This document shows, one piece after another, positions 1,426-10,902 of a stretch of DNA of 10,902 nt. The stretch comes from a virus (lineage: Duplodnaviria > Heunggongvirae > Uroviricota > Caudoviricetes): IMG/VR virus record IMGVR_UViG_2531839668_000016; one strand, given 5' to 3'. The translations under genes were made by a program, and so were the position numbers. The notes under the pieces are model-generated. The model saw only the letters and a program-made list of their open reading frames with translations. It did no database searches and was not told where the DNA came from. How positions within the stretch are numbered: the first letter of the stretch is position 1; every line of letters starts with the position of its first letter.

Positions 1426-1481
1426 TGGGCTTCATATAAATATGCTCGATATGCTATTAATAATATCCACATAAATAAAAC

Positions 1482-1504
1482 AACGGGCGTGTTATACGCC
1501 CGTT
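1482..1504 (-). terminator. Rho-independent terminator of icd (perfect 9-bp stem AACGGGCGT / ACGCCCGTT, 5-nt loop), possibly bidirectional for iraM
   Basis: Perfect inverted repeat seen directly. On the minus strand it is followed by GTTTTATTTATG. It lies 24 bp downstream of the icd-fragment stop codon, between the convergent iraM and icd fragment. Confidence 0.5.
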
Positions 1505-1527
1505 TCAATATTTAACACATGGAGAGA

Positions 1528-1692
1528 TTACATGTTTTCGATGATCGCTTCACCAAACTCTGAACATTTCAGCAGCTTAGCGCCTTCCATCAGACGTTCG
1601 AAGTCATAAGTTACGGTCTTGGCATTGATTGCGCCTTCCATACCTTTAACAATCAGGTCAGCCGCTTCAGTCCAACCCATATGGCGCAGCAG
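1528..1692 (-). pseudogene. icd: 3' fragment of isocitrate dehydrogenase gene (icdC-like); att core duplication of an icd-integrating prophage
   Basis: Minus-strand translation reads [54 protein letters not shown], which is the Icd C-terminus. There is no upstream coding continuation, and homology ends near 1692. Confidence 0.85.
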
Positions 1693-1882
1693 TATATAAA
1701 AACCATGAATTCAAGTCATTGATATTTAACGATAAAAATTATTTTATTGTCTTTTTATTAGCCAAAATAAACTTTATTCAACCGTTTGATTTCATTGACG
1801 TTCGTTTTTATTTTGGGGAAAGGTTTTCTCTACCATTTATATCCAAATTACAAGTCTACATTTTATTAACATCTCAATACAT

Positions 1883-2427: not shown

Positions 2428-3513
2428 CTATTGCCAGCAATTGTTTTTAATTGCTTTAGCATCTACCGTCATATCTACTGTAGCAAAATGGATCTTATGT
2501 CCCTGAGTGACAACATACTCATTAAGCATATAGCCAACAGCTGGATGAAGTAGAAGACCAGCGGCATTGAGCGAAAGCGGATCCGTCTTGTTCTCCTGTG
2601 TTCTAAGGTAGGTATATAGCTGATAAATATAGCCATTACGTAGTGATTGCTCCCGATGCCAACCCTTTGTCAGAATCGAATTAAATTTGGTATCGATAAT
2701 AATACGCCGCTGGGCAGTCTTGTGTTCCAGAATAATGTCTGACTTCATTGTCGGGAAAATCTCTGCACTACCTGCACTTTGATCGCTCAACGCCCATTTC
2801 AGCTCTTTCCCTGCAGAGACCTGCCAAGTTGTTTTGGCAAGGTGTACACGATATAAGCCAGCGATACCTTTTTCAAATAGTCTTCTCATCCAGTAAAGGT
2901 TATTTGAGGGCGCAGGTAAAAGATATTGGCCTTGATCTTCGGTCGGCATCAGCAGTTCAAAAGCTAATCGTGCGGCATCGACCATCGGTTTATCTGCGGC
3001 ATCATGGCGTCCAAAACGCCACACTGAGGGTAATTCGCGGGGGGCAGGATATCCTCCATTTATCCCCTCACGGCGAAGTGATATTGCCATAAAATGGCAA
3101 TCTGCCGCCAAAGACGGTTTCACTATGATTGAGGCCAGACGTTCTAACGCACAGCGAACATAGCGATTTCGGGGGGTGTTGAGGGTTATGTCTTGAAAAT
3201 GGCAGGCAACCTGTCCCCGTTCCAGCAGTTGATGACTGGCAGTATACAGTATGTCAATGCGCCCTCTCACCCGGTTCAGGGCCGCATGACAAGTTTGGTA
3301 TCCCATATTTAAATTGCGACGTCGGCGCAGCGTAATCTCATGAAGGAGGATTGTCGCCACCAGGTCGGGGATTTCTGCTGGGTTATCTTCTACTGCGATC
3401 TGATTGCGCCCTAACTGGCGAAACAGATCTGAAGCGTACAGCATCAGCATCCAGATATTTCGCATGGGAATACGTGATGCTGTATGTTGCTCACTCCCGG
3501 TTATTGTCGTCAT
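2428..3513 (-). CDS. McrC-like nuclease subunit of a McrBC-type (type IV, modification-dependent) restriction system
   Basis: 361 aa. Its ATG overlaps the stop of the upstream McrB-like gene (ATGA at 3510-3513). Size is similar to McrC (348 aa), and the C-terminal region has a PD-(D/E)xK-like stretch (DIILEHK...IIIDTKF). Confidence 0.65.
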   Translation of the reverse strand: MTTITGSEQHTASRIPMRNIWMLMLYASDLFRQLGRNQIAVEDNPAEIPDLVATILLHEITLRRRRNLNMGYQTCHAALNRVRGRIDILYTASHQLLERGQVACHFQDITLNTPRNRYVRCALERLASIIVKPSLAADCHFMAISLRREGINGGYPAPRELPSVWRFGRHDAADKPMVDAARLAFELLMPTEDQGQYLLPAPSNNLYWMRRLFEKGIAGLYRVHLAKTTWQVSAGKELKWALSDQSAGSAEIFPTMKSDIILEHKTAQRRIIIDTKFNSILTKGWHREQSLRNGYIYQLYTYLRTQENKTDPLSLNAAGLLLHPAVGYMLNEYVVTQGHKIHFATVDMTVDAKAIKNNCWQ

Positions 3514-5492
3514 TTTGCTAATAACACTTTTCTGGCTTCATCGACTTTATTTGGAGCATCGAACCAATATTCGGCGAGCAAAGGGCAGATCTCTGTATCA
3601 ACGACTTGTTCATACCAAGCCTGGGCATCGTTGATTTTTTGGCCGATAGCTGGGGTGACATAGCTGTGACCGATACAAAACTGTGGTCCTAAGGTAACAT
3701 CTTTTGCCAGCATATCGTTTAATACCGTCAGTCGAGATTTGATGAATGCTAACATGTCAAAATCAATTGCGTAATTATAATTTACCCAGTTTCTCCACGC
3801 GTCATTAAAAGCTGGCTTTAGATCGATAAACGCGAAACGACGGCGCAGCGCTAGGTCAAGTAGTGCGAGTGAGCGGTCTGCAATATTCATCGTACCGATG
3901 ATATATAGATTCTCAGGAATGTATATTTTTTCATCAGCATTTTTAGGATAGGAAAGAGATAATGCCTCAGTCGGCGTGCGTTTATCTGCTTCCATCAACG
4001 TGAGTGTTTCACCGAAGATTTGCGCCGGATTGCCACGATTAATCTCTTCAATTATCACCACATATTTCGAGGTAGGATTATTGACTGCAGTTTTGATTGC
4101 ATTTACAAAAGGTCCATCAATTAGCGTCAATTGCCCTTCTTTACCTGGACGCCAGCCTCGAATAAAGTCTTCGTAAGAGAGGTTCGGGTGAAATTGCACC
4201 GCGCTAATACGCTCAGGTGCTTTTTCTCCCATCAAGCAGTACGCCAGACGTCGCGCTAACCAAGTTTTTCCAGTTCCGGGTGGTCCTTGTAATATCAGGT
4301 TTTTCTTGTCGATCAGGCGCTGAAGTGTGAGTTGGATCTTAGCCTCTTCCAAGAAACAGCCATCCTGCACCAGATGACTGATGTCATAAGGAACGTGGGT
4401 GAGTTTTGGCAACAGCGCACTCTCTTCGACAGTTTCCTCAGTTATCGTCTGGGATTCGTTTTTCTCAAAATTCAGGTATTCATAATTTCCGGACTCGAGG
4501 GACTTTAACTCATCATCATTGCATAGTTTCTGTAGATAAAAGTAGATTGAGCTTGTAACAGTTTTGCTCTCAGGATGCTCTACCTTGAATACGTCCAAGT
4601 AGTTTTCTTCCAACTCCGAAGCAGTGAAATAAGGGCCATTTTTTTTCAGGCATAACGCCTTAATTTTATTCAGTAAAGAGGCTTTCCACGTTCTATTTGC
4701 CACCTCATCTTTAGACTGGCTAAGATCTGTATTCCACGCTGATAAGGAAAGTTCTGGGAAAGAATGAACCGGATAGTTTGGTTGGGTAAAGACCTCGTTC
4801 AGCGCCCGCATAAGACTCAGGTAACTTTGTCCACTACAGCGACCTTTTGCCCCGTTTTTAATGATCTTAATGTTTAACACTGTCTGAATGTAATACTGCG
4901 ACTGGCTATCTAAAGTGGGGTAGAACCAAGGACGGGTCCAGTACAACCCCATGGTGAGATTCCAACCGACATTCATTACTGTAGAAGCGATGTCATATGC
5001 GGCAGTGAAGTCTGCAGAGTTAGTATTCTGGTTATCCGCAAAGATCATTGCCTGTGAGAACATTTCCCACAAGCATTCAATGTCATTAGGGTCGCGTGAC
5101 TTTTCATAACCAAAGAACCAAGATTTTTGGTTATTCAACAGAGGGATTCCGGCAAAGGAGTCAGGAATCGGTTCGTTCACGCCCAACAAATTCGCTAGCT
5201 TGGCAGCAATAATTTTGCGATTGCTGTCGGTCAAGTTACGATTGAACAAGCCCATAGTAGTAAACGGACAAATGTCTTTTAAGGGAAAGATCTCTCCCAT
5301 AATAGATTTGTCCTGCAGATGGGACATTCCTTCCACACCCGAGGCAATTAGATGAATACCTTTGACTAATTCATCTCTACGATTTCGCCAAGTCAGTAAC
5401 GCGTTGGCAAAAGCCTCATAAAAACTAGCCCAAGCAAACTTGCCATCATGTTCTGCTGTATCCACGGGAACTCCATTATACTTGTTGAGCAA
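3510..5492 (-). CDS. McrB-family AAA+ GTPase with a large uncharacterised N-terminal domain (~390 aa)
   Basis: Walker A GPPGTGKT at aa 403-410 (nt 4263-4286). VVIIEEINRGN...FGETLTLMEADKR and the IIGTMNIADRSLALLDLALRRRFAFIDL block closely parallel E. coli McrB (FIIDEINRAN..., MNTADRSLAVVDYALRRRF). The N-terminal 390 aa are unrelated to the E. coli McrB DNA-binding domain. The annotated start is TTG; an in-frame GTG 9 codons downstream has a better SD. Confidence 0.8.
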   Translation of the reverse strand: MLNKYNGVPVDTAEHDGKFAWASFYEAFANALLTWRNRRDELVKGIHLIASGVEGMSHLQDKSIMGEIFPLKDICPFTTMGLFNRNLTDSNRKIIAAKLANLLGVNEPIPDSFAGIPLLNNQKSWFFGYEKSRDPNDIECLWEMFSQAMIFADNQNTNSADFTAAYDIASTVMNVGWNLTMGLYWTRPWFYPTLDSQSQYYIQTVLNIKIIKNGAKGRCSGQSYLSLMRALNEVFTQPNYPVHSFPELSLSAWNTDLSQSKDEVANRTWKASLLNKIKALCLKKNGPYFTASELEENYLDVFKVEHPESKTVTSSIYFYLQKLCNDDELKSLESGNYEYLNFEKNESQTITEETVEESALLPKLTHVPYDISHLVQDGCFLEEAKIQLTLQRLIDKKNLILQGPPGTGKTWLARRLAYCLMGEKAPERISAVQFHPNLSYEDFIRGWRPGKEGQLTLIDGPFVNAIKTAVNNPTSKYVVIIEEINRGNPAQIFGETLTLMEADKRTPTEALSLSYPKNADEKIYIPENLYIIGTMNIADRSLALLDLALRRRFAFIDLKPAFNDAWRNWVNYNYAIDFDMLAFIKSRLTVLNDMLAKDVTLGPQFCIGHSYVTPAIGQKINDAQAWYEQVVDTEICPLLAEYWFDAPNKVDEARKVLLAK

Positions 5493-5825: not shown

Positions 5826-6409
5826 TTATTCCATAACAGGGATTGCAGGCCACTCAATATCAGGTGCAGTTGATGTATCAACACGATTCAGCAACACCCG
5901 ATACTTCTTCCAGGCTTCAAGCAACGAGGTTTCTTCCTCCGTTGCGATTTCCAGATCTGCAGCATCCTGAAGCGGGGCAATATGCTCACTGGCTACCTGC
6001 ATCAGGCTGTTTTTGTTTCTTCCGCCTCCCGGATCCGGAACAGTTTTTCTGCTTCCGTATCCTTCACCCAGGCTGTGCCGTTCCACTTCTGAAACTCCCC
6101 TTCCGGGGATAACCAGGTGATATTTTCCGGTAGAGGTCCGAGTTCAGAAATAAATAACGAGTCGCCGGAAGCCACGTCATAGACGGTTTTTCCCCGATGA
6201 TCTTCAACGAGATGCCACGATGCCTCATCACTGTTGAAAACAGCCACGAAGCCTACCGGAATATCTGGCGGTGCAATATAGGTACTGTTTGCTGGCAGAC
6301 CTGTATGAGGCGGAATATATGCGTCACCTTCACCAATAAATTCATTAGTTCCGGCCAGCAGATTATAAATTTTTATGGTCCGTGGTTGTTCACTCATTCT
6401 GAATGCCAT
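5826..6409 (-). pseudogene. tfa: Tail fibre assembly protein (Tfa, lambda/e14 TfaE-like), frameshifted
   Basis: Two overlapping ORFs in different frames (6002-6409 and 5826-6086) together give [15 protein letters not shown]...REAEETK / [22 protein letters not shown]...[10 protein letters not shown], i.e. a full Tfa. The frame break is in an A-run at 6008-6017. Confidence 0.8.
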
Positions 6410-6537
6410 TATGCAAGCCTCACAATGTAGTTAAATGCGATGTTTTTGACGGTGTTTTCCGCGTTACCAGCAGCGTTAACGGTGATGGTGTGTCCATGTG
6501 AGCCAATCGCAACGGAGTGCGTATGAGCACCAATACC
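6409..6537 (-). pseudogene. stf: C-terminal fragment (~42 aa) of side tail fibre protein Stf
   Basis: Minus-strand frame gives [42 protein letters not shown], and its TAA overlaps the tfa ATG (TAATG). Nothing upstream is Stf-like. Confidence 0.7.
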
Positions 6538-6632
6538 TGTGGCTTTTCGTCGTACTGTTCCGGCATGTTGTTGGCGATCCGACGCATCTGCTCACGGTCA
6601 AAGTTAACCATCTGTGCGGCGATGTTTTTCAT
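6535..6632 (-). pseudogene. P: N-terminal fragment (~33 aa) of lambda replication protein P
   Basis: [33 protein letters not shown] matches the lambda P N-terminus, after which the frame runs into out-of-frame stf sequence. Its start overlaps the O-fragment stop (ATGA). Confidence 0.75.
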
Positions 6633-6865
6633 AGATCCACCCCGTAAATCCAGTCAGTGTTTGTCAGGTCGAGTTTTGGTTTGCCGACTGTCACGCCAGC
6701 CTGTTGCTTGTTCCGGTTGATTTCGAGCTGGGTCCACTTGTCGCGGAGTTTGGCCGGACTCAGCACGTTACCGGACCAGAAGTTGTCCTGGCAGGCCCAG
6801 CGGAACAGTACACACATGTCGCGGTGGTTACGTCCATCACGTTCACGCATCAGACGGATATCGTT
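6629..6865 (-). pseudogene. O: C-terminal fragment of lambda replication initiator O
   Basis: ...[56 protein letters not shown] matches the lambda O C-terminus. Upstream, the reading frame runs into antisense exo sequence. Confidence 0.75.
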
Positions 6866-7519
6866 ACCGGGATCGACGTGAGAGCTGTCGAACAGGGGGA
6901 TGATGCGTGGCACAAATTACGGCTCGGCGTCATCACCGCTTCAGAAGTTCACAACGTGATAGCAAAGCCCCGCTCAGGAAAGAAGTGGCCTGACATGAAA
7001 ATGTCCTACTTCCACACCCTGCTTGCCGAGGTTTGCACCGGTGTGGCTCCGGAAGTTAACGCTAAAGCACTGGCCTGGGGAAAACAGTACGAGAACGACG
7101 CCAGAACCCTGTTTGAGTTCACTTCCAGCGTAAATGTTATTGAATCCCCGATCATCTATCGCGACGAAAGTATGCGCACCGCCTGCTCTCCCGATGGTTT
7201 ATGCAGTGACGGCAATGGCCTTGAACTGAAATGCCCGTTTACCTCCCGGGATTTCATGAAGTTCCGGCTCGGTGGTTTCGAGGCCATAAAGTCGGCTTAC
7301 ATGGCCCAGGTGCAGTACAGCATGTGGGTGACGCGAAAAGATGCCTGGTACTTTGCCAACTATGACCCGCGTATGAAGCGTGAAGGCCTGCATTATGTCG
7401 TGGTTGAGCGGGATGAAAAGTACATGGCGAATTTTGACGAGATGGTGCCGGAGTTCATCGAAAAAATGGACGAGGCACTGGCTGAAATTGGTTTTGTATT
7501 TGGGGAGCAATGGCGATGA
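6866..7519 (+). pseudogene. exo: Lambda exonuclease (Red-alpha, Exo), 5'-truncated (lacks ~first 9 codons)
   Basis: [56 protein letters not shown]...[11 protein letters not shown] is near-identical to lambda Exo from residue ~11 to the end. The upstream 55 codons of the 6704 ORF are antisense to the O fragment and are not Exo. Confidence 0.85.
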
Positions 7520-7674
7520 CGCATCCTCACGATAATATCCGGGTAGGCGCGATCACTTTCGTCTACTCCATTACAAAGCGAGGCTGGGTATTTCCCGGCC
7601 TTTCTGTTATCAGAAATCCACTGAAAGCACAGCGGCTGGCTGAGAAGATAAATAACAAACAGGAGGATATATGA
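7516..7674 (+). CDS. Small ORF (52 aa, [52 protein letters not shown]), coupled on both sides
   Basis: Its ATG overlaps the exo stop (ATGA at 7516-7519), and its TGA overlaps the ATG of the DGQHR gene (ATGA at 7671-7674). Positionally it corresponds to the small orfs following exo in lambda. Confidence 0.5.
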
Positions 7675-8735
7675 GTCAGGTTGGTAATCATTCATTCGAA
7701 TTTCCGGCATCGCAAGGTGTACAGGGTGGTACTGTTACACTCTTCCTTACCATACCAGGAAGATCGCTGGCTCGTTTCCTCGCTTCAGATAATTACGGCC
7801 ATACACTGGAACGCTCTCAGCGAGAAATTAATCCAAATCGAGTACGAAAATTTTTAAATTATCTCACTAACGCAGACTCAAGAAATGAGCCTTTTATCAT
7901 TCCCCCTCTCGTAGGTAACTGTGATTCGAATATAGAATTTGTACCGTTTGGCAACACAAATGTTGGTATAGCCAGAATTCCCCTCGACGCCGAAATAAAA
8001 CTTTTTGATGGTCAACATCGTGCAGCTGGCATTGAGATATTTTGCCGAAGTTCCCCATCAACGCTCATGGTTCCCATGATGCTTACAATGAATCTGCCGC
8101 TAAAAACCCGGCAGCAGTTCTTTTCGGACATAAATAACAACGTTTCTAAGCCATCAGCGACCATCAATATGGCGTATAACGGCCGGGATGATATTGCTCA
8201 GGGAATGATATCCTTCCTGACCCAACATACTGTATTTGCCGATATAACCGATTTTGAACACAACGTAGTGCCATTAAAAAGTAATATGTGGGTGAGTTTC
8301 AAGGCACTCACTGATGCAACGTCAAAGTTCGCTAGGAACGGCAATCAACAACTTGAAATGGGATATATAGAATCTGTCTGGGAGGCATGGATTACACTAA
8401 CTCAGATTGACTCAATCCGACATGGTGTACACCACGCTACGTACAAGCGCGATTATATTCAGTTCCATGGAGTAATGATTAACGCTTTCGGTTTTGCGGT
8501 TCAACAGATGATGGTTAATCATTCCATCGCAGAAATAACTTCTATGATCGAAAAACTATGTGCAACTACCAGCTCTGCAGAAAGAGAGGATTTTTTTCTG
8601 ATGGATAACTGGGCGGGGATCTGCACGAAAGCCAGCCAGGAAAAACTATCTGTTATTGCCAATGTGGCAGCGCAGAAAGCAGCAGCAAACAGACTGATAC
8701 AAGCTTTTACCAAAGGAAGTCTGGAAACAACTTAA
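7671..8735 (+). CDS. DGQHR-domain protein (DndB-like, ParB/Srx-like fold)
   Basis: 354 aa with an exact DGQHR motif (KLFDGQHRAAGIE, aa 113-117, nt 8007-8021). SD CAGGAGGA lies upstream, and the gene is translationally coupled to the preceding small ORF. Confidence 0.75.
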   Translation: MSQVGNHSFEFPASQGVQGGTVTLFLTIPGRSLARFLASDNYGHTLERSQREINPNRVRKFLNYLTNADSRNEPFIIPPLVGNCDSNIEFVPFGNTNVGIARIPLDAEIKLFDGQHRAAGIEIFCRSSPSTLMVPMMLTMNLPLKTRQQFFSDINNNVSKPSATINMAYNGRDDIAQGMISFLTQHTVFADITDFEHNVVPLKSNMWVSFKALTDATSKFARNGNQQLEMGYIESVWEAWITLTQIDSIRHGVHHATYKRDYIQFHGVMINAFGFAVQQMMVNHSIAEITSMIEKLCATTSSAEREDFFLMDNWAGICTKASQEKLSVIANVAAQKAAANRLIQAFTKGSLETT

Positions 8736-8812: not shown

Positions 8813-8833
8813 GGAGCTACAGGCTCCTTTTTT
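8813..8833 (+). terminator. Candidate rho-independent terminator (GGAGC-tacag-GCTCC followed by TTTTTT)
   Basis: 5-bp GC-rich stem and a 6-T run seen directly, downstream of the DGQHR gene. The stem is short, so this is weak. Confidence 0.35.
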
Positions 8834-8888: not shown

Positions 8889-9107
8889 ATGGCAGACATC
8901 ATTGATTCAGCATCAGAAATTGAAGAATTACAGCGCAACACAGCAATAAAAATGCGCCGCCTGAACCACCAGGCTATATCTGCCACTCATTGTTGTGAGT
9001 GTGGCGATCCGATAGATGAACGAAGACGCCTGGCCGTTCAGGGTTGTCGGACTTGTGCAAGTTGCCAGGAGGAGATCGAACTTAAGAACAAACAATGGGG
9101 ACTGTGA
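8889..9107 (+). CDS. TraR/DksA-family C4 zinc-finger protein (phage-type)
   Basis: 72 aa with CxxC-x17-CxxC (CCECGD...CRTCASC) in a DksA/TraR-like C-terminal arrangement. Such genes are common in lambdoid early-left regions. Confidence 0.7.
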   Translation: MADIIDSASEIEELQRNTAIKMRRLNHQAISATHCCECGDPIDERRRLAVQGCRTCASCQEEIELKNKQWGL

Positions 9108-9154
9108 TGGCTTCAAAGCAGCAAATTTCAACATCGTCCAACTGAGGTGTAAAA

Positions 9155-9394
9155 ATGTTCAGAATCATTTTTCCTAACACCTGGTACGTCGACCACCACG
9201 GCACTCCCTGCAAAATCCTGCGTTCTACCCACAACAAAGTTCACTACATCCGAAAAGGCAGAACATGTATCGCCAGCATGTTCCGCTTTAATCATGACTT
9301 TGAACCTGTGAATAAAGCTGATGCAGATCGGATAGCAGAAGAGATCGAAACGGCAGAACACATTAAGAAGTTACGTGCCATACGCAGGAAATAG
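9155..9394 (+). CDS. Small phage protein of unknown function (early-left region)
   Basis: 79 aa ORF with SD GAGGTG 5 nt upstream of the ATG, lying between the TraR-like gene and xis. Confidence 0.5.
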   Translation: MFRIIFPNTWYVDHHGTPCKILRSTHNKVHYIRKGRTCIASMFRFNHDFEPVNKADADRIAEEIETAEHIKKLRAIRRK

Positions 9395-9533
9395 AAAAAT
9401 TGATAAATTCAATACTGCATTACTCAGCATTAAATTTATCTCTATGACCAGTCAAGAGATGTACCTGCCATGAGCTTAATATCATGTCAGATATATCGGT
9501 CACAAACTCCCTCAGCAGCTAAGAGGAGGACAA

Positions 9534-9770
9534 ATGTCTCGACTAATCACTTTACAGGACTGGGCTAAAGAAGAATTTGGGGACTTAGCACCAAGTGAGC
9601 GAGTTCTGAAAAAATACGCGCAAGGGAAAATGATGGCCCCACCCGCTATAAAAGTTGGTCGCTACTGGATGATTGACCGAAATTCCCGTTTTGTAGGAAC
9701 GCTTGCAGAACCGCAACTCCCAATAAACGCAAACCCAAAACTCCAACGGATAATCGCTGATGGCTGCTAG
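9534..9770 (+). CDS. xis: Excisionase (Xis-like recombination directionality factor)
   Basis: 78 aa with strong SD AAGAGGAGGA. It sits immediately upstream of int and overlaps it by 11 nt. The N-terminal LITLQDWA...PPAIKVGRYW resembles lambda Xis (YLTLQEW...PPPVKDGREY). Confidence 0.65.
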   Translation: MSRLITLQDWAKEEFGDLAPSERVLKKYAQGKMMAPPAIKVGRYWMIDRNSRFVGTLAEPQLPINANPKLQRIIADGC

Positions 9771-10902
9771 ACCCCGATCTCACAAAATCTCTATACCCAA
9801 TTTATATTGCAAATTAGATAAGCGAACCGGAAAGGTATATTGGCAATACAAACATCCACTATCCGGTCGTTTTCATAGCTTAGGAACTGATGAGAATGAA
9901 GCAAAACAAGTTGCTACTGAAGCAAATACCATTATTGCTGAACAACGTACCAGACAAATATTAAGCGTCAATGAGCGTCTGGAAAGAATGAAAGGCAGGC
10001 GCTCAGACATTACGGTGACAGAATGGCTTGATAAATATATTTCTATCCAGGAGGACAGGCTGCAACATAATGAACTAAGACCCAACTCCTATCGGCAAAA
10101 AGGCAAACCCATTCGTCTTTTCCGTGAGCATTGTGGAATGCAACACCTCAAGGATATTACCGCACTTGATATTGCCGAAATAATTGATGCTGTAAAGGCT
10201 GAAGGTCATAACAGGATGGCGCAAGTCGTGAGAATGGTGTTGATCGACGTCTTCAAAGAAGCACAACACGCAGGACATGTTCCGCCAGGATTTAACCCTG
10301 CGCAGGCAACAAAACAACCGCGAAATCGAGTAAACCGCCAAAGATTGTCACTGCTCGAATGGCAGGCAATATTTGAAAGCGTAAGCAGACGGCAGCCCTA
10401 TTTAAAATGCGGCATGCTACTTGCTCTTGTTACTGGACAACGTTTAGGCGATATCTGCAATTTGAAATTCTCTGATATATGGGACGACATGTTGCACATT
10501 ACTCAGGAAAAAACCGGTTCAAAACTTGCTATTCCGCTTAACCTGAAATGCGATGCTCTGAATATTACCCTTCGTGAAGTTATATCTCAGTGCAGGGATG
10601 CTGTTGTTAGTAAATATCTGGTCCATTACCGTCACACTACCTCTCAAGCAAACAGAGGAGACCAGGTTTCTGCAAATACTCTGACAACGGCTTTTAAAAA
10701 GGCCCGGGAAAAATGTGGCATAAAATGGGAGCAAGGAACTGCGCCCACATTTCATGAGCAGCGATCTCTCTCAGAACGGTTATATCGGGAACAGGGTCTG
10801 GATACGCAAAAGTTGTTAGGCCATAAATCCAGAAAAATGACCGACCGATACAATGATGATCGTGGTAAAGACTGGATTATCGTAGATATCAAAACAGCAT
10901 AG
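9760..10902 (+). CDS. int: Lambda-family tyrosine integrase
   Basis: 380 aa. N-terminus MAARPRSHKISIPNLY resembles lambda Int MGRRRSHERRDLPPNLY. C-terminal catalytic region has GQRLGD, HEQRSLSERLY, LGHKS and RYNDDRGKDW, paralleling lambda HELRSLSARLY...LGHKS...YRDDRGREW. Confidence 0.9.
   Translation: MAARPRSHKISIPNLYCKLDKRTGKVYWQYKHPLSGRFHSLGTDENEAKQVATEANTIIAEQRTRQILSVNERLERMKGRRSDITVTEWLDKYISIQEDRLQHNELRPNSYRQKGKPIRLFREHCGMQHLKDITALDIAEIIDAVKAEGHNRMAQVVRMVLIDVFKEAQHAGHVPPGFNPAQATKQPRNRVNRQRLSLLEWQAIFESVSRRQPYLKCGMLLALVTGQRLGDICNLKFSDIWDDMLHITQEKTGSKLAIPLNLKCDALNITLREVISQCRDAVVSKYLVHYRHTTSQANRGDQVSANTLTTAFKKAREKCGIKWEQGTAPTFHEQRSLSERLYREQGLDTQKLLGHKSRKMTDRYNDDRGKDWIIVDIKTA

What the first reader, a model, noticed from the sequence alone, without database searches (positions are those of the whole stretch)
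9534..10902. Intact xis-int beside a gutted prophage: the remnant may still be an excisable defence island
All replication, immunity, lysis and structural functions in view are deleted or fragmentary. int has all the recognisable catalytic motifs, and xis has a strong SD. Together with the att core duplication at 1528-1692, this suggests selection to retain mobility of the cargo (McrBC-like module and DGQHR gene) rather than phage function.
Basis: inference. Interest (0 to 1): 0.45.

Follow-up and report, generated by a model that had tools for sequence, protein, structure and literature searches.

The report
Decayed phage-21 prophage with intact integrase
This is the integrase end of a decayed phage-21-type prophage inserted in the E. 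coli icd gene. Its excision genes and attachment sites are still intact, but that is what recent in-place decay predicts, so it is an ordinary cryptic prophage rather than a newly evolved mobile defence island.

Summary
Window 9534-10902 encodes an intact excisionase and tyrosine integrase at the edge of a gutted lambdoid prophage inserted in E. coli icd.

The element is not e14. Int is 379/380 identical to phage 21 Int, and xis is nucleotide-identical to phage 21 xis. Every Int residue also occurs in a sequenced phage. Both attachment sites are complete: attL lies at about 1664-1826, and attR lies 10-280 nt past the window end, with four TTTTGGGGAA arm sites in all. The recombination module is therefore excision-competent in principle.

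- pL, N, cI and cII are deleted and no LexA box precedes xis, so an SOS link is unlikely.
- No ori or cos survives, so an excised circle would simply be lost.
- Related genomes show stepwise shrinkage in place, in two chromosomal backgrounds.
- Copies in one background are nearly identical, and xis-int sits at the prophage edge. Intact int is therefore the neutral expectation, not evidence of selection.
- In one strain IS1 disrupts the DGQHR cargo gene.

The closest precedent is K-12 e14, an excisable defective prophage at the same site that carries mcrA. This is a new member of a known kind, of low interest.

The parts
1475..1691 (.). Left copy of the 217-nt direct repeat. It holds the icd terminator hairpin plus the icdC pseudogene (the original chromosomal 3' end of icd, coding on the - strand at 1528-1680). 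It forms the bacterial arm of attL.
   Evidence: the repeat finder family D1: 93% identical to L001 16967-17183. PGAP annotates a partial isocitrate dehydrogenase here. Alignment with phage 21 attP.
1664..1691 (.). Inferred core/crossover region of attL (GCTTCAGTCCAACCCATATGGCGCAGCA). Homology with icd ends at 1691. Position 1681 is A here and G in attR.
   Evidence: Alignment of attL, attR and four phage attP sequences. Placing the crossover between 1664 and 1681 is inference from which alleles follow the phage and which follow the chromosome.
1692..1826 (.). P' arm of attL. It has two IHF-consensus matches (1712-1724 and 1779-1791, - strand) and one arm-type Int site (TATTTTGGGGAAAGGTTT, 1809-1826).
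   Evidence: 93% identical to the phage 21 P' arm. Arm motif: 4 copies in the locus against 0.04 expected by chance. IHF pattern matches.
2428..3513 (-). mcrC homologue (cargo). Relatives use a start equivalent to 3465 and a stop equivalent to 2393. In the window a 1-nt homopolymer indel at 2443/2444 changes the last ~17 residues.
   Evidence: NCBIfam McrC equivalog, 346.8 bits against a cut-off of 338. Pfam McrBC. Indel.
3510..5492 (-). McrB-like AAA+/GTPase subunit (cargo). The C-terminal 280 aa are McrB-like. The N-terminal ~380 aa match no known family. PGAP places the start at 5465.
   Evidence: Pfam AAA_5. NCBIfam McrB matches residues 378-654 only. The N-terminal region has no PDB sequence match.
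6002..6409 (-). Tail fibre assembly gene. It is 194 aa in near-identical genomes and is cut to 135 aa in the window by a homopolymer indel at 6009/6010.
6409..6865 (-). Deletion scars: tail-fibre 3' fragment (6409-6537), the first 33 codons of P (6534-6632) and the last 79 codons of O (6629-6865). The ori iterons are absent.
   Evidence: PGAP pseudogene calls in L001. BLAST to phage 21 shows window 6534-6866 = L004 3001-3333, while the ori is at L004 3561-3647.
6860..7519 (+). Lambda exo homologue lacking about 9 N-terminal codons. The second deletion junction (O to exo) is at ~6865.
   Evidence: Pfam YqaJ. Window 6865-7600 = phage 21 L004 8337-9072, where exo starts at 8311.
7516..7674 (+). 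DUF1317 gene, the conserved upstream partner of the DGQHR gene.
   Evidence: The same pairing occurs in Salmonella phage SPN1S.
7671..8735 (+). Orphan DGQHR/DndB-like gene in the early-left (exo-xis) accessory region. A terminator-like hairpin follows at 8813-8827.
   Evidence: Pfam DndB E=3.8e-46. TIGR03187 at 188.8 bits, but the DndB equivalog is not reached (106.9 against 328). Terminator scan.
8889..9394 (+). TraR/DksA zinc-finger gene (8889-9107) and DUF4222 gene (9155-9394). They are the usual neighbours of xis in 21-type phages.
   Evidence: The same order is seen in phages 21, 4A7, Perceval and 1H12.
9534..9770 (+). xis, the excisionase (recombination directionality factor).
   Evidence: 237/237 nt identical to phage 21, 4A7, Perceval and 1H12 xis. 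Pfam Exc.
9760..10902 (+). int, a lambda-family heterobivalent tyrosine integrase of the phage 21 type. Its partner attR lies just past the window end: three arm sites at +10 to +52, a terminator, the phage-borne icd 3' end and the core.
   Evidence: 379/380 aa identical to phage 21 Int. The one difference (R316) is shared with 4A7, Perceval and 1H12. Domains and catalytic residues. attR.

Best explanation
The finding covers the recombination module (xis-int, with attR just beyond the window) of a phage-21-type lambdoid prophage. That prophage integrated into the 3' end of icd and has since been whittled down in place to about 9.5 kb.

How it would work (inferred from the lambda/21 paradigm): Int binds the TTTTGGGGAA arm sites and the core. 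Xis and host IHF bend the arms, and attL x attR recombination releases a circle. The chromosome is left with icd joined to its original 3' end (icdC).

Shown here: all cis and trans parts are present and match those of functional phages.

Inferred:
- The native control circuit (pL, N, cI, cII) is gone. Expression of xis-int is therefore at most basal or read-through, and is not SOS-coupled.
- The remnant has no ori and no cos. Excision would therefore cure the cell, not transfer the island.
- The intactness of int-xis is best explained by recent decay and by its position at the protected edge next to the needed icd 3' end. Selection for mobility is not required.
- The cargo (a McrBC-family pair in the b region and a DGQHR gene in the exo-xis region) occupies ordinary phage accessory slots. 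It more plausibly moves by recombination with related phages or with flanking DNA.
For: Identity with phage 21:
- Int is 99.7% identical to phage 21 Int and xis is 100% identical in nucleotides. No residue is private to the remnant.
- Int aligns over its full length with lambda Int, with R-K-H-R-H-Y conserved.

Attachment sites:
- The P arm with three arm sites is identical to phage 21. The P' arm is 93% identical and keeps its arm site. Two IHF-like sites are present.

Gene order and losses:
- Gene order fits an integrated lambdoid map.
- Deletion 2 removes phage 21 coordinates L004 3334-8336. That takes out ori, cII, cro, cI, pL, N, gam and bet.
- There is no cosN, and no LexA or CII site near xis.

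Decay in place:
- In background A, L013 (17.5 kb) shares the window's O/exo junction but not the stf-P deletion. L007 lost a different segment.
- In background B, L006 (20.7 kb, still with cI/cro/O/P) leads to the IS1 type L005/L008.
- Only 7 genomes share the window's junctions.
- Within background A the shared DNA is 99.5-100% identical.

Frequency:
- 21-type xis-int is in 1679 of 5426 complete genomes, and 1611 copies are full length.

Precedent:
- e14 at the same site excises although defective (PMC13626634, PMC6379469).
- Defective O157 prophages excise (PMC2669165).
Against: - No expression or excision data exist for this remnant.
- The consensus scan found no convincing sigma-70 promoter upstream of xis, and a terminator-like hairpin follows the DGQHR gene. 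The module may therefore be silent.
- attL and attR differ at one base next to the core (window 1681 A against G). If that base lies in the overlap region, excision would be impaired.
- Three independent decay routes all kept int-xis and both cargo modules. That pattern is also what selection would produce.
- My neutral estimate (about 3% risk per deletion) is a rough calculation, not a fitted model.
Confidence: 0.72

Rival explanations
1. The remnant is a domesticated, self-excising defence island, and natural selection keeps int, xis and both att sites so that the McrBC and DGQHR cargo stays mobile.
For: - The recombination module and att sites are intact.
- At least three independent deletion histories all retain both ends plus both cargo modules.
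- Cargo and int are more conserved between backgrounds A and B (99.1-99.6%) than the chromosomal flanks (95-98.6%).
- Integrase-only defence islands with unknown mobilisation are a recognised puzzle in E. coli (PMC10121019).
Against: - There is no ori, cos or transfer function, so an excised circle is lost.
- Each background has its own junctions, and larger intermediates are still present. The small island therefore did not spread as such.
- Decay is too recent for point mutations to test selection.
- The edge position makes survival the neutral expectation.
- The DGQHR gene is IS1-disrupted in one strain, and IS3 sits in the xis leader in another.
- 96% of all 21-type xis-int copies are full length whatever the state of the prophage.
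Confidence: 0.1
2. Grounded remnant. int and xis look intact but are functionally silent or blocked. The element can then leave only by RecA-dependent recombination between the 217-nt icd repeats, or not at all.
For: - pL, N and cII are lost. No promoter-like site lies upstream of xis, and a terminator-like hairpin lies upstream.
- attL and attR differ by one base beside the core.
- The 217-nt, 93% identical direct repeats give an Int-independent deletion route.
- Highly degraded O157 elements gave no circles (PMC2669165).
Against: - Cryptic prophages such as e14 and rac still excise at low rates (PMC13626634, PMC4632033).
- In O157 Sakai, prophages Sp4 and Sp14, judged to lack functional excisionase, still gave circular forms (PMC2669165).
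- The consensus promoter scan is insensitive.
- The same A/G polymorphism occurs among natural icd alleles that 21-type phages use.
Confidence: 0.2
3. Helper-dependent element or gene reservoir. Infecting or co-resident 21-type phages supply Int and Xis. More likely, they recombine with the long homologous ends (P' arm; exo to int) and pick up the McrBC or DGQHR modules. That would spread the cargo on viable phages.
For: - 27 phage records encode an Int at least 99% identical.
- The ends are 96-100% identical to those phages.
- The A-versus-B comparison is mosaic: cargo 99+% against exo and the post-mcrB spacer at 95.8%.
- The two backgrounds carry different core and Int alleles, 21/4A7-like against 1H12-like, with the same cargo.
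Against: - No sequenced phage in the collection carries this McrB-like gene or a DGQHR gene more than 65% identical.
- There is no cos or satellite-type hijacking gene.
- No full-size prophage with this cargo was found among the loci inspected. Several dozen McrBC-bearing genomes that do not cover 80% of the window were not inspected.
Confidence: 0.15
4. It is the K-12-type e14 element.
For: Same insertion site, with an icdC pseudogene next to iraM, and a type IV restriction gene in the slot next to icdC.
Against: - Int is only 60% identical to IntE and Xis only 36% to XisE.
- lit, pin, mcrA and ymf genes are absent.
- Int is 99.7% identical to phage 21 Int.
Confidence: 0.01

Closest known systems
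Phage 21 site-specific recombination system (Int21/Xis21/att21; GenBank M61865, OL657228)
   Same: Int is 379/380 aa identical and xis is nucleotide-identical. There are three P-arm sites and one P'-arm site. Insertion is in icd, with a phage-borne replacement 3' end.
   Different: Here the module sits in a 9.5-kb remnant without pL, N, cI, cII, ori, cos or morphogenesis genes. The cargo is McrBC plus DGQHR instead of phage 21's sitABCD.
Cryptic prophage e14 of E. coli K-12
   Same: It is also a defective lambdoid element in icd flanked by icdC and iraM. It carries a type IV restriction gene (mcrA) in the slot beside icdC and keeps int and xis. It is documented to excise (PMC13626634; PMC6379469).
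   Different: e14 has a different integrase type (60% identity) and different arm specificity. It retains a repressor (ymfK/cohE) and is SOS-inducible. This remnant has lost the immunity region.
Excision-proficient defective prophages (O157 Sakai Sp elements; rac)
   Same: Prophages with gross defects that still circularise through their own integrase (PMC2669165; PMC4632033).
   Different: Those elements mostly retain regulatory and replication regions. The most degraded ones (Sp1-Sp3, SpLEs) gave no circles. This remnant is at that degraded end (PMC2669165).
Integrase-only defence islands at E. coli hotspots (Hochhauser et al. 2023)
   Same: A phage-type integrase plus a defence system with no other mobility genes (PMC10121019).
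   Different: Here the origin is traceable. Intermediate decay stages in related genomes show that the island is a prophage that shrank in place.

Membership tests
Lambda-family heterobivalent tyrosine integrase | N-terminal arm-DNA-binding domain | tested here: met
   PF09003, E=1.8e-28, residues 1-71.
Lambda-family heterobivalent tyrosine integrase | Catalytic domain with R-K-H-R-H and the tyrosine nucleophile | tested here: met
   PF00589, E=1.5e-23. R228, K251, H332, R335, H355 and Y364 align with lambda Int R212, K235, H308, R311, H333 and Y342 in 1z1b. The lambda residue numbers are from established knowledge.
Lambda-family heterobivalent tyrosine integrase | Repeated arm-type sites flanking a core in the att sites | tested here: met
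   TTTTGGGGAA occurs four times (three in the P arm, one in the P' arm) against 0.04 expected by chance.
Lambda-family heterobivalent tyrosine integrase | Catalyses integration and excision | not testable with these tools
   Needs junction PCR or an in vitro assay.
Phage 21 Int/Xis/att system | Near-identity to Int21 and Xis21 | tested here: met
   379/380 aa for Int and 237/237 nt for xis.
Phage 21 Int/Xis/att system | Insertion in icd, with duplication and replacement of its 3' end | tested here: met
   217-nt repeat, the icdC pseudogene, and functional icd adjacent to int.
Phage 21 Int/Xis/att system | attL and attR identical in the strand-exchange (overlap) region | tested here: inconclusive
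   One A/G difference at window 1681 against L001 17173. The limits of the overlap could not be established here.
e14 element (K-12 type) | IntE/XisE-type recombinase and lit, pin, mcrA cargo | tested here: not met
   60% and 36% identity. The cargo genes are absent.
Phage satellite (P4-like, PICI and similar) | Own replication module, and a packaging signal or capsid-redirection genes | tested here: not met
   The O fragment lacks the ori. No primase or rep gene was seen. There is no cosN. No satellite-type family appears in the Pfam or PADLOC scans of the ORFs submitted.
McrBC type IV restriction system | McrC nuclease subunit | tested here: met
   NCBIfam equivalog NF007277, 346.8 bits against a cut-off of 338.
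McrBC type IV restriction system | McrB GTPase/AAA+ motor | tested here: met
   NF008457 matches residues 378-654 (262 bits). Pfam AAA_5, E=8e-27.
McrBC type IV restriction system | EcoKMcrB-type N-terminal DNA-binding domain | tested here: not met
   The equivalog cut-off is not reached (262 against 637). Residues 1-380 match no Pfam family at E<=0.01 and no PDB sequence.
Dnd phosphorothioation system | DndB together with dndACDE | tested here: not met
   The DGQHR domain is present, but the DndB equivalog score is 106.9 against 328. No dnd genes are in the locus.

The most novel reading that the evidence does not exclude
Int-Xis-att is actively maintained in this decayed element as a reversible or one-way genetic switch. 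Rare excision would jettison the McrBC restriction barrier and restore the ancestral icd 3' end. That would give the population a bet-hedging subpopulation, for example one able to accept modified DNA or with altered Icd. On this reading, several independent decay routes converged on the same 'two ends only' architecture for that reason.
Probability: 0.08. Interest if true: 0.5.

Novelty: new member of a known kind. Interest (0 to 1): 0.2.

Why it matters
The main value is clarification. The integrase is the classical phage 21 Int, not e14's, and it occurs in about 30% of complete E. coli genomes. The locus also gives a worked example, with intermediate stages preserved in related genomes, of how an 'integrase-only defence island' can arise from a full prophage by stepwise internal deletion. 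That bears on the open question of how such islands originate and move (PMC10121019). It does not reveal a new mechanism.

Tried and rejected
- e14 identity: rejected.
- Satellite or PICI-like reading: rejected. There is no ori, cos or replication gene.
- SOS or CII control of xis-int: no LexA box or CII site lies near xis, and the regulators are deleted.
- The promoter scan gave fewer hits than shuffled sequence and nothing upstream of xis, so it is uninformative.
- I tried to read Wang et al. 1997 (PMID 9294425, PMC179457) for the att21 overlap. It is not held, so the position of the 1681 mismatch relative to the overlap stays open.
- I tried to count int-less remnants by comparing P'-arm and xis-int frequencies (1466 against 1679 genomes). 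There is no excess of P' arms, but the two sets could not be intersected with these tools.
- I looked for this cargo on sequenced phages. There is no close McrB-like homologue, and DGQHR homologues reach only 62-65% identity.
- PDB sequence searches for Xis, the McrB-like N-terminus and the DGQHR protein gave nothing useful.
- Rfam found only IS009.

Full report
**What the locus is**

The whole window matches E. coli chromosomes. It differs from strain STECUZB006 only by four 1-nt indels, and 204 of 5426 complete genomes cover at least 80% of it. In that genome the order is bluR-ycgX-iraM, then an icd 3'-end pseudogene, then about 9.5 kb of foreign DNA ending in excisionase and integrase, then the functional icd gene.

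This is the classical icd insertion site used by e14 and phage 21 (PMC12803456, PMC6379469). The finding's coordinates hold two complete ORFs. xis is at 9534-9770, with AGGAGG 7 nt upstream. int is at 9760-10902 and overlaps the xis stop codon.

- Int carries the lambda arm-binding domain and the tyrosine recombinase catalytic domain.
- Int aligns over its full length with lambda Int crystal-structure sequences (E=2.9e-55).
- R228, K251, H332, R335, H355 and Y364 sit at the lambda catalytic positions.
- The 'att duplication' is a 217-nt direct repeat at window 1475-1691. Its 93%-identical partner lies 61-277 nt past the window end and forms the working 3' end of icd.
- The rest of the prophage is indeed gutted. 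What remains is tfa, a 129-nt tail-fibre fragment, 33 codons of P, the last 79 codons of O, and exo lacking about 9 codons.

**It is phage 21, not e14**

Int is only 60% identical to K-12 IntE, and Xis only 36% identical to XisE. Against phage genomes, Int is 379/380 identical to phage 21 Int, and xis is identical at all 237 nucleotides.

The single Int difference (R316, where phage 21 has K) is shared with phages 4A7, Perceval and 1H12. No residue of this Int is therefore private to the remnant.

**Both att sites are complete**

- The three arm-type sites annotated in the phage 21 genome (consensus YYTTCCCCAAAA) lie 10-52 nt past the int stop and are identical to those of phage 21.
- A fourth arm site lies in the P' arm at window 1809-1826.
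- The 10-mer TTTTGGGGAA occurs four times in the 22.9-kb locus, against 0.04 expected by chance.
- Two IHF-consensus matches lie between the core and the P' arm site.
- Alleles that travel with the phage or with the chromosome place the crossover between about 1664 and 1681. This is my inference.
- One caveat: attL has A at 1681 where attR has G. This is a synonymous His-codon polymorphism of icd. I could not establish whether it lies in the strand-exchange overlap.

**What is missing**

Mapping onto the annotated phage 21 genome shows two deletions.

- One runs from the tail fibre gene through heads, cos, lysis and Q into P.
- The other removes most of O with the ori iterons, plus cII, cro, cI, pL/nutL, N, kil, gam, bet and the start of exo.

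Other points:

- There is no cosN sequence.
- No LexA box or CII-type site lies near xis.
- No promoter-like site lies upstream of xis.
- A terminator-like hairpin follows the DGQHR gene at 8813-8827.

So the proposed SOS induction has no visible basis. An excised circle could neither replicate nor be packaged.

**Did the remnant move, or shrink in place?**

Only 7 genomes share the window's two deletion junctions. Related genomes preserve intermediates.

| Background | Locus | Structure |
|---|---|---|
| A | Z1323HEC0011 (L013) | 17.5 kb; same O/exo junction; still has a longer tail-fibre fragment, a serine recombinase, emrE, ren and intact P |
| A | NCTC9087 (L007) | Lost a different segment; keeps gam-bet-exo |
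| B | TD225-C4 (L006) | 20.7 kb; repressor, cro, O and P still present |
| B | IS1-bearing form (L005, L008; the repeated pattern among the best hits, H13-H30) | Derives from the L006 form by further deletions |

Identity between the locus sequences:

| Comparison | Segment | Identity |
|---|---|---|
| Within background A | Shared DNA | 99.5-100% |
| A against B | Chromosomal flanks | 93-98.6% |
| A against B | Cargo and int | 99.1-99.6% |
| A against B | exo | 95.8% |

The two backgrounds also carry different core and Int alleles: 21/4A7-like in A and 1H12-like in B.

The simplest reading is two lysogenisations by related mosaic phages, followed by at least three independent in-place decay routes. 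The 9.5-kb remnant did not spread as an island.

**Is intact int-xis evidence of selection?**

I think not.

1. Decay within a background is too recent for point mutations to have accumulated, so only deletions matter.
2. xis-int is a 1.4-kb target at the extreme edge of a prophage of about 45 kb, beside the icd 3' end the cell needs. By my rough estimate a random internal deletion has about a 3% chance of ending in it. Eight or so deletions would then all miss it about 78% of the time.
3. Retention is the rule for this integrase. 1679 of 5426 complete genomes have a 21-type xis-int, and 1611 of these are full length. The P' arm is found in 1466 genomes. Of the 21-type elements outside the McrBC group, I inspected only Nissle 1917. 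Its element reads as a lambdoid prophage, with sitABCD and tail and head genes extending beyond the 20 kb examined.
4. The cargo is not untouchable. IS1 interrupts the DGQHR gene in one strain, and IS3 sits in the xis leader in another.

**The cargo**

- The mcrC homologue passes the NCBIfam equivalog cut-off.
- Its partner has a McrB-type GTPase domain, but its 380-aa N-terminal region has no detectable relatives. It is a genuine McrBC-family type IV system, probably with a different specificity domain.
- The pair sits between the tail-fibre genes and attP. That is the slot mcrA occupies in e14.
- The DGQHR protein is an orphan DndB-like protein without dnd partners.
- Homologues of the DGQHR protein at 62-65% identity, also paired with DUF1317, occur in sequenced Salmonella and Klebsiella phage genomes. 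Calling it a defence gene is speculation.

**Comparison with the known, and verdict**

The closest precedent is e14. It is a defective lambdoid element at the same site, carries a type IV restriction gene, and still excises (PMC13626634, PMC6379469). Defective O157 prophages also excise, although the most degraded ones did not (PMC2669165). 'Integrase-only' defence islands are a recognised class in E. coli (PMC10121019).

This locus is a phage-21-type member of that known kind. Excision competence is plausible and untested. Selection for mobility is unsupported. Interest is low. The useful by-product is a clear decay series showing how such islands form.

Noticed in passing
window 1010/1011, 1018/1019, 2443/2444, 6009/6010: Across the whole 10.9 kb, the window differs from otherwise identical genomes only by four 1-nt deletions. 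All four are in T or G homopolymer runs. Two of them shift the frame of the mcrC 3' end and truncate tfa (135 aa against 194 aa). They look like sequencing or assembly errors rather than biology.
   Followed up: partly
window 4353-5492 (- strand; residues 1-380 of the McrB-like protein): The N-terminal 380 aa of the McrB-like subunit match no Pfam or NCBIfam family and no PDB sequence. This may be an undescribed DNA-modification reader domain on a McrBC motor.
   Followed up: partly
window 7516-8735: A DUF1317 plus orphan DGQHR/DndB-like gene pair sits in the exo-xis accessory region. Homologues at 62-65% identity occur in sequenced Salmonella phage (SPN1S) and Klebsiella phage genomes, and the adjacent DUF1317 gene is annotated in the SPN1S record. 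The function is unknown. In strain Z1323PEC0012 (L014 7977-9817) IS1A disrupts the gene.
   Followed up: partly
window 8813-8827 (+): A GC-rich hairpin with a T run lies directly after the DGQHR gene. In a remnant without N antitermination it would block read-through towards xis-int. It suggests the DGQHR gene is a self-contained moron-like insert.
   Followed up: no
window 9395-9533: The 139-nt xis leader contains a 16-bp-stem AT-rich inverted repeat (9402-9440). It folds more stably than shuffled sequence (z=-2.6). A spacer of the same length (139 nt) precedes xis in phages 21, 4A7 and Perceval; its sequence there was not compared. It may be a regulatory site. In L013, IS3 has inserted into this spacer.
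   Followed up: partly
window 1681 against L001 17173: There is a single A/G difference between attL and attR a few bases from the inferred crossover. It is a synonymous His codon in icd. In the background-B remnants both sites carry G.
   Followed up: partly
window 5869-6066 (-): Rfam IS009 (RF02111) matches at 207.8 bits. The match overlaps the 3' end of the tail fibre assembly gene.
   Followed up: no
window 2428-5492 compared with L002 15847-16680: A type IV restriction cargo occupies the same slot, between the tail-fibre/invertase genes and the att site next to icdC, in both this 21-type element (McrBC-like) and K-12 e14 (mcrA). In background B a pin-like invertase pseudogene lies beside the McrB-like gene, as pin does beside mcrA in e14.
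   Followed up: partly
L001 against L005/L006: Divergence is mosaic. Cargo, xis and int are 99.1-99.6% identical between two chromosomal backgrounds. By contrast iraM, icdC and exo differ by 4-7%. This implies recent exchange of modules between lambdoid backbones.
   Followed up: partly
window 6704-7519 (+): The longest ORF through exo (271 aa) runs back across the O/exo deletion junction. That adds about 50 unrelated N-terminal residues if the TTG start at 6704 is used. PGAP calls a 219-aa product from 6860.
   Followed up: no
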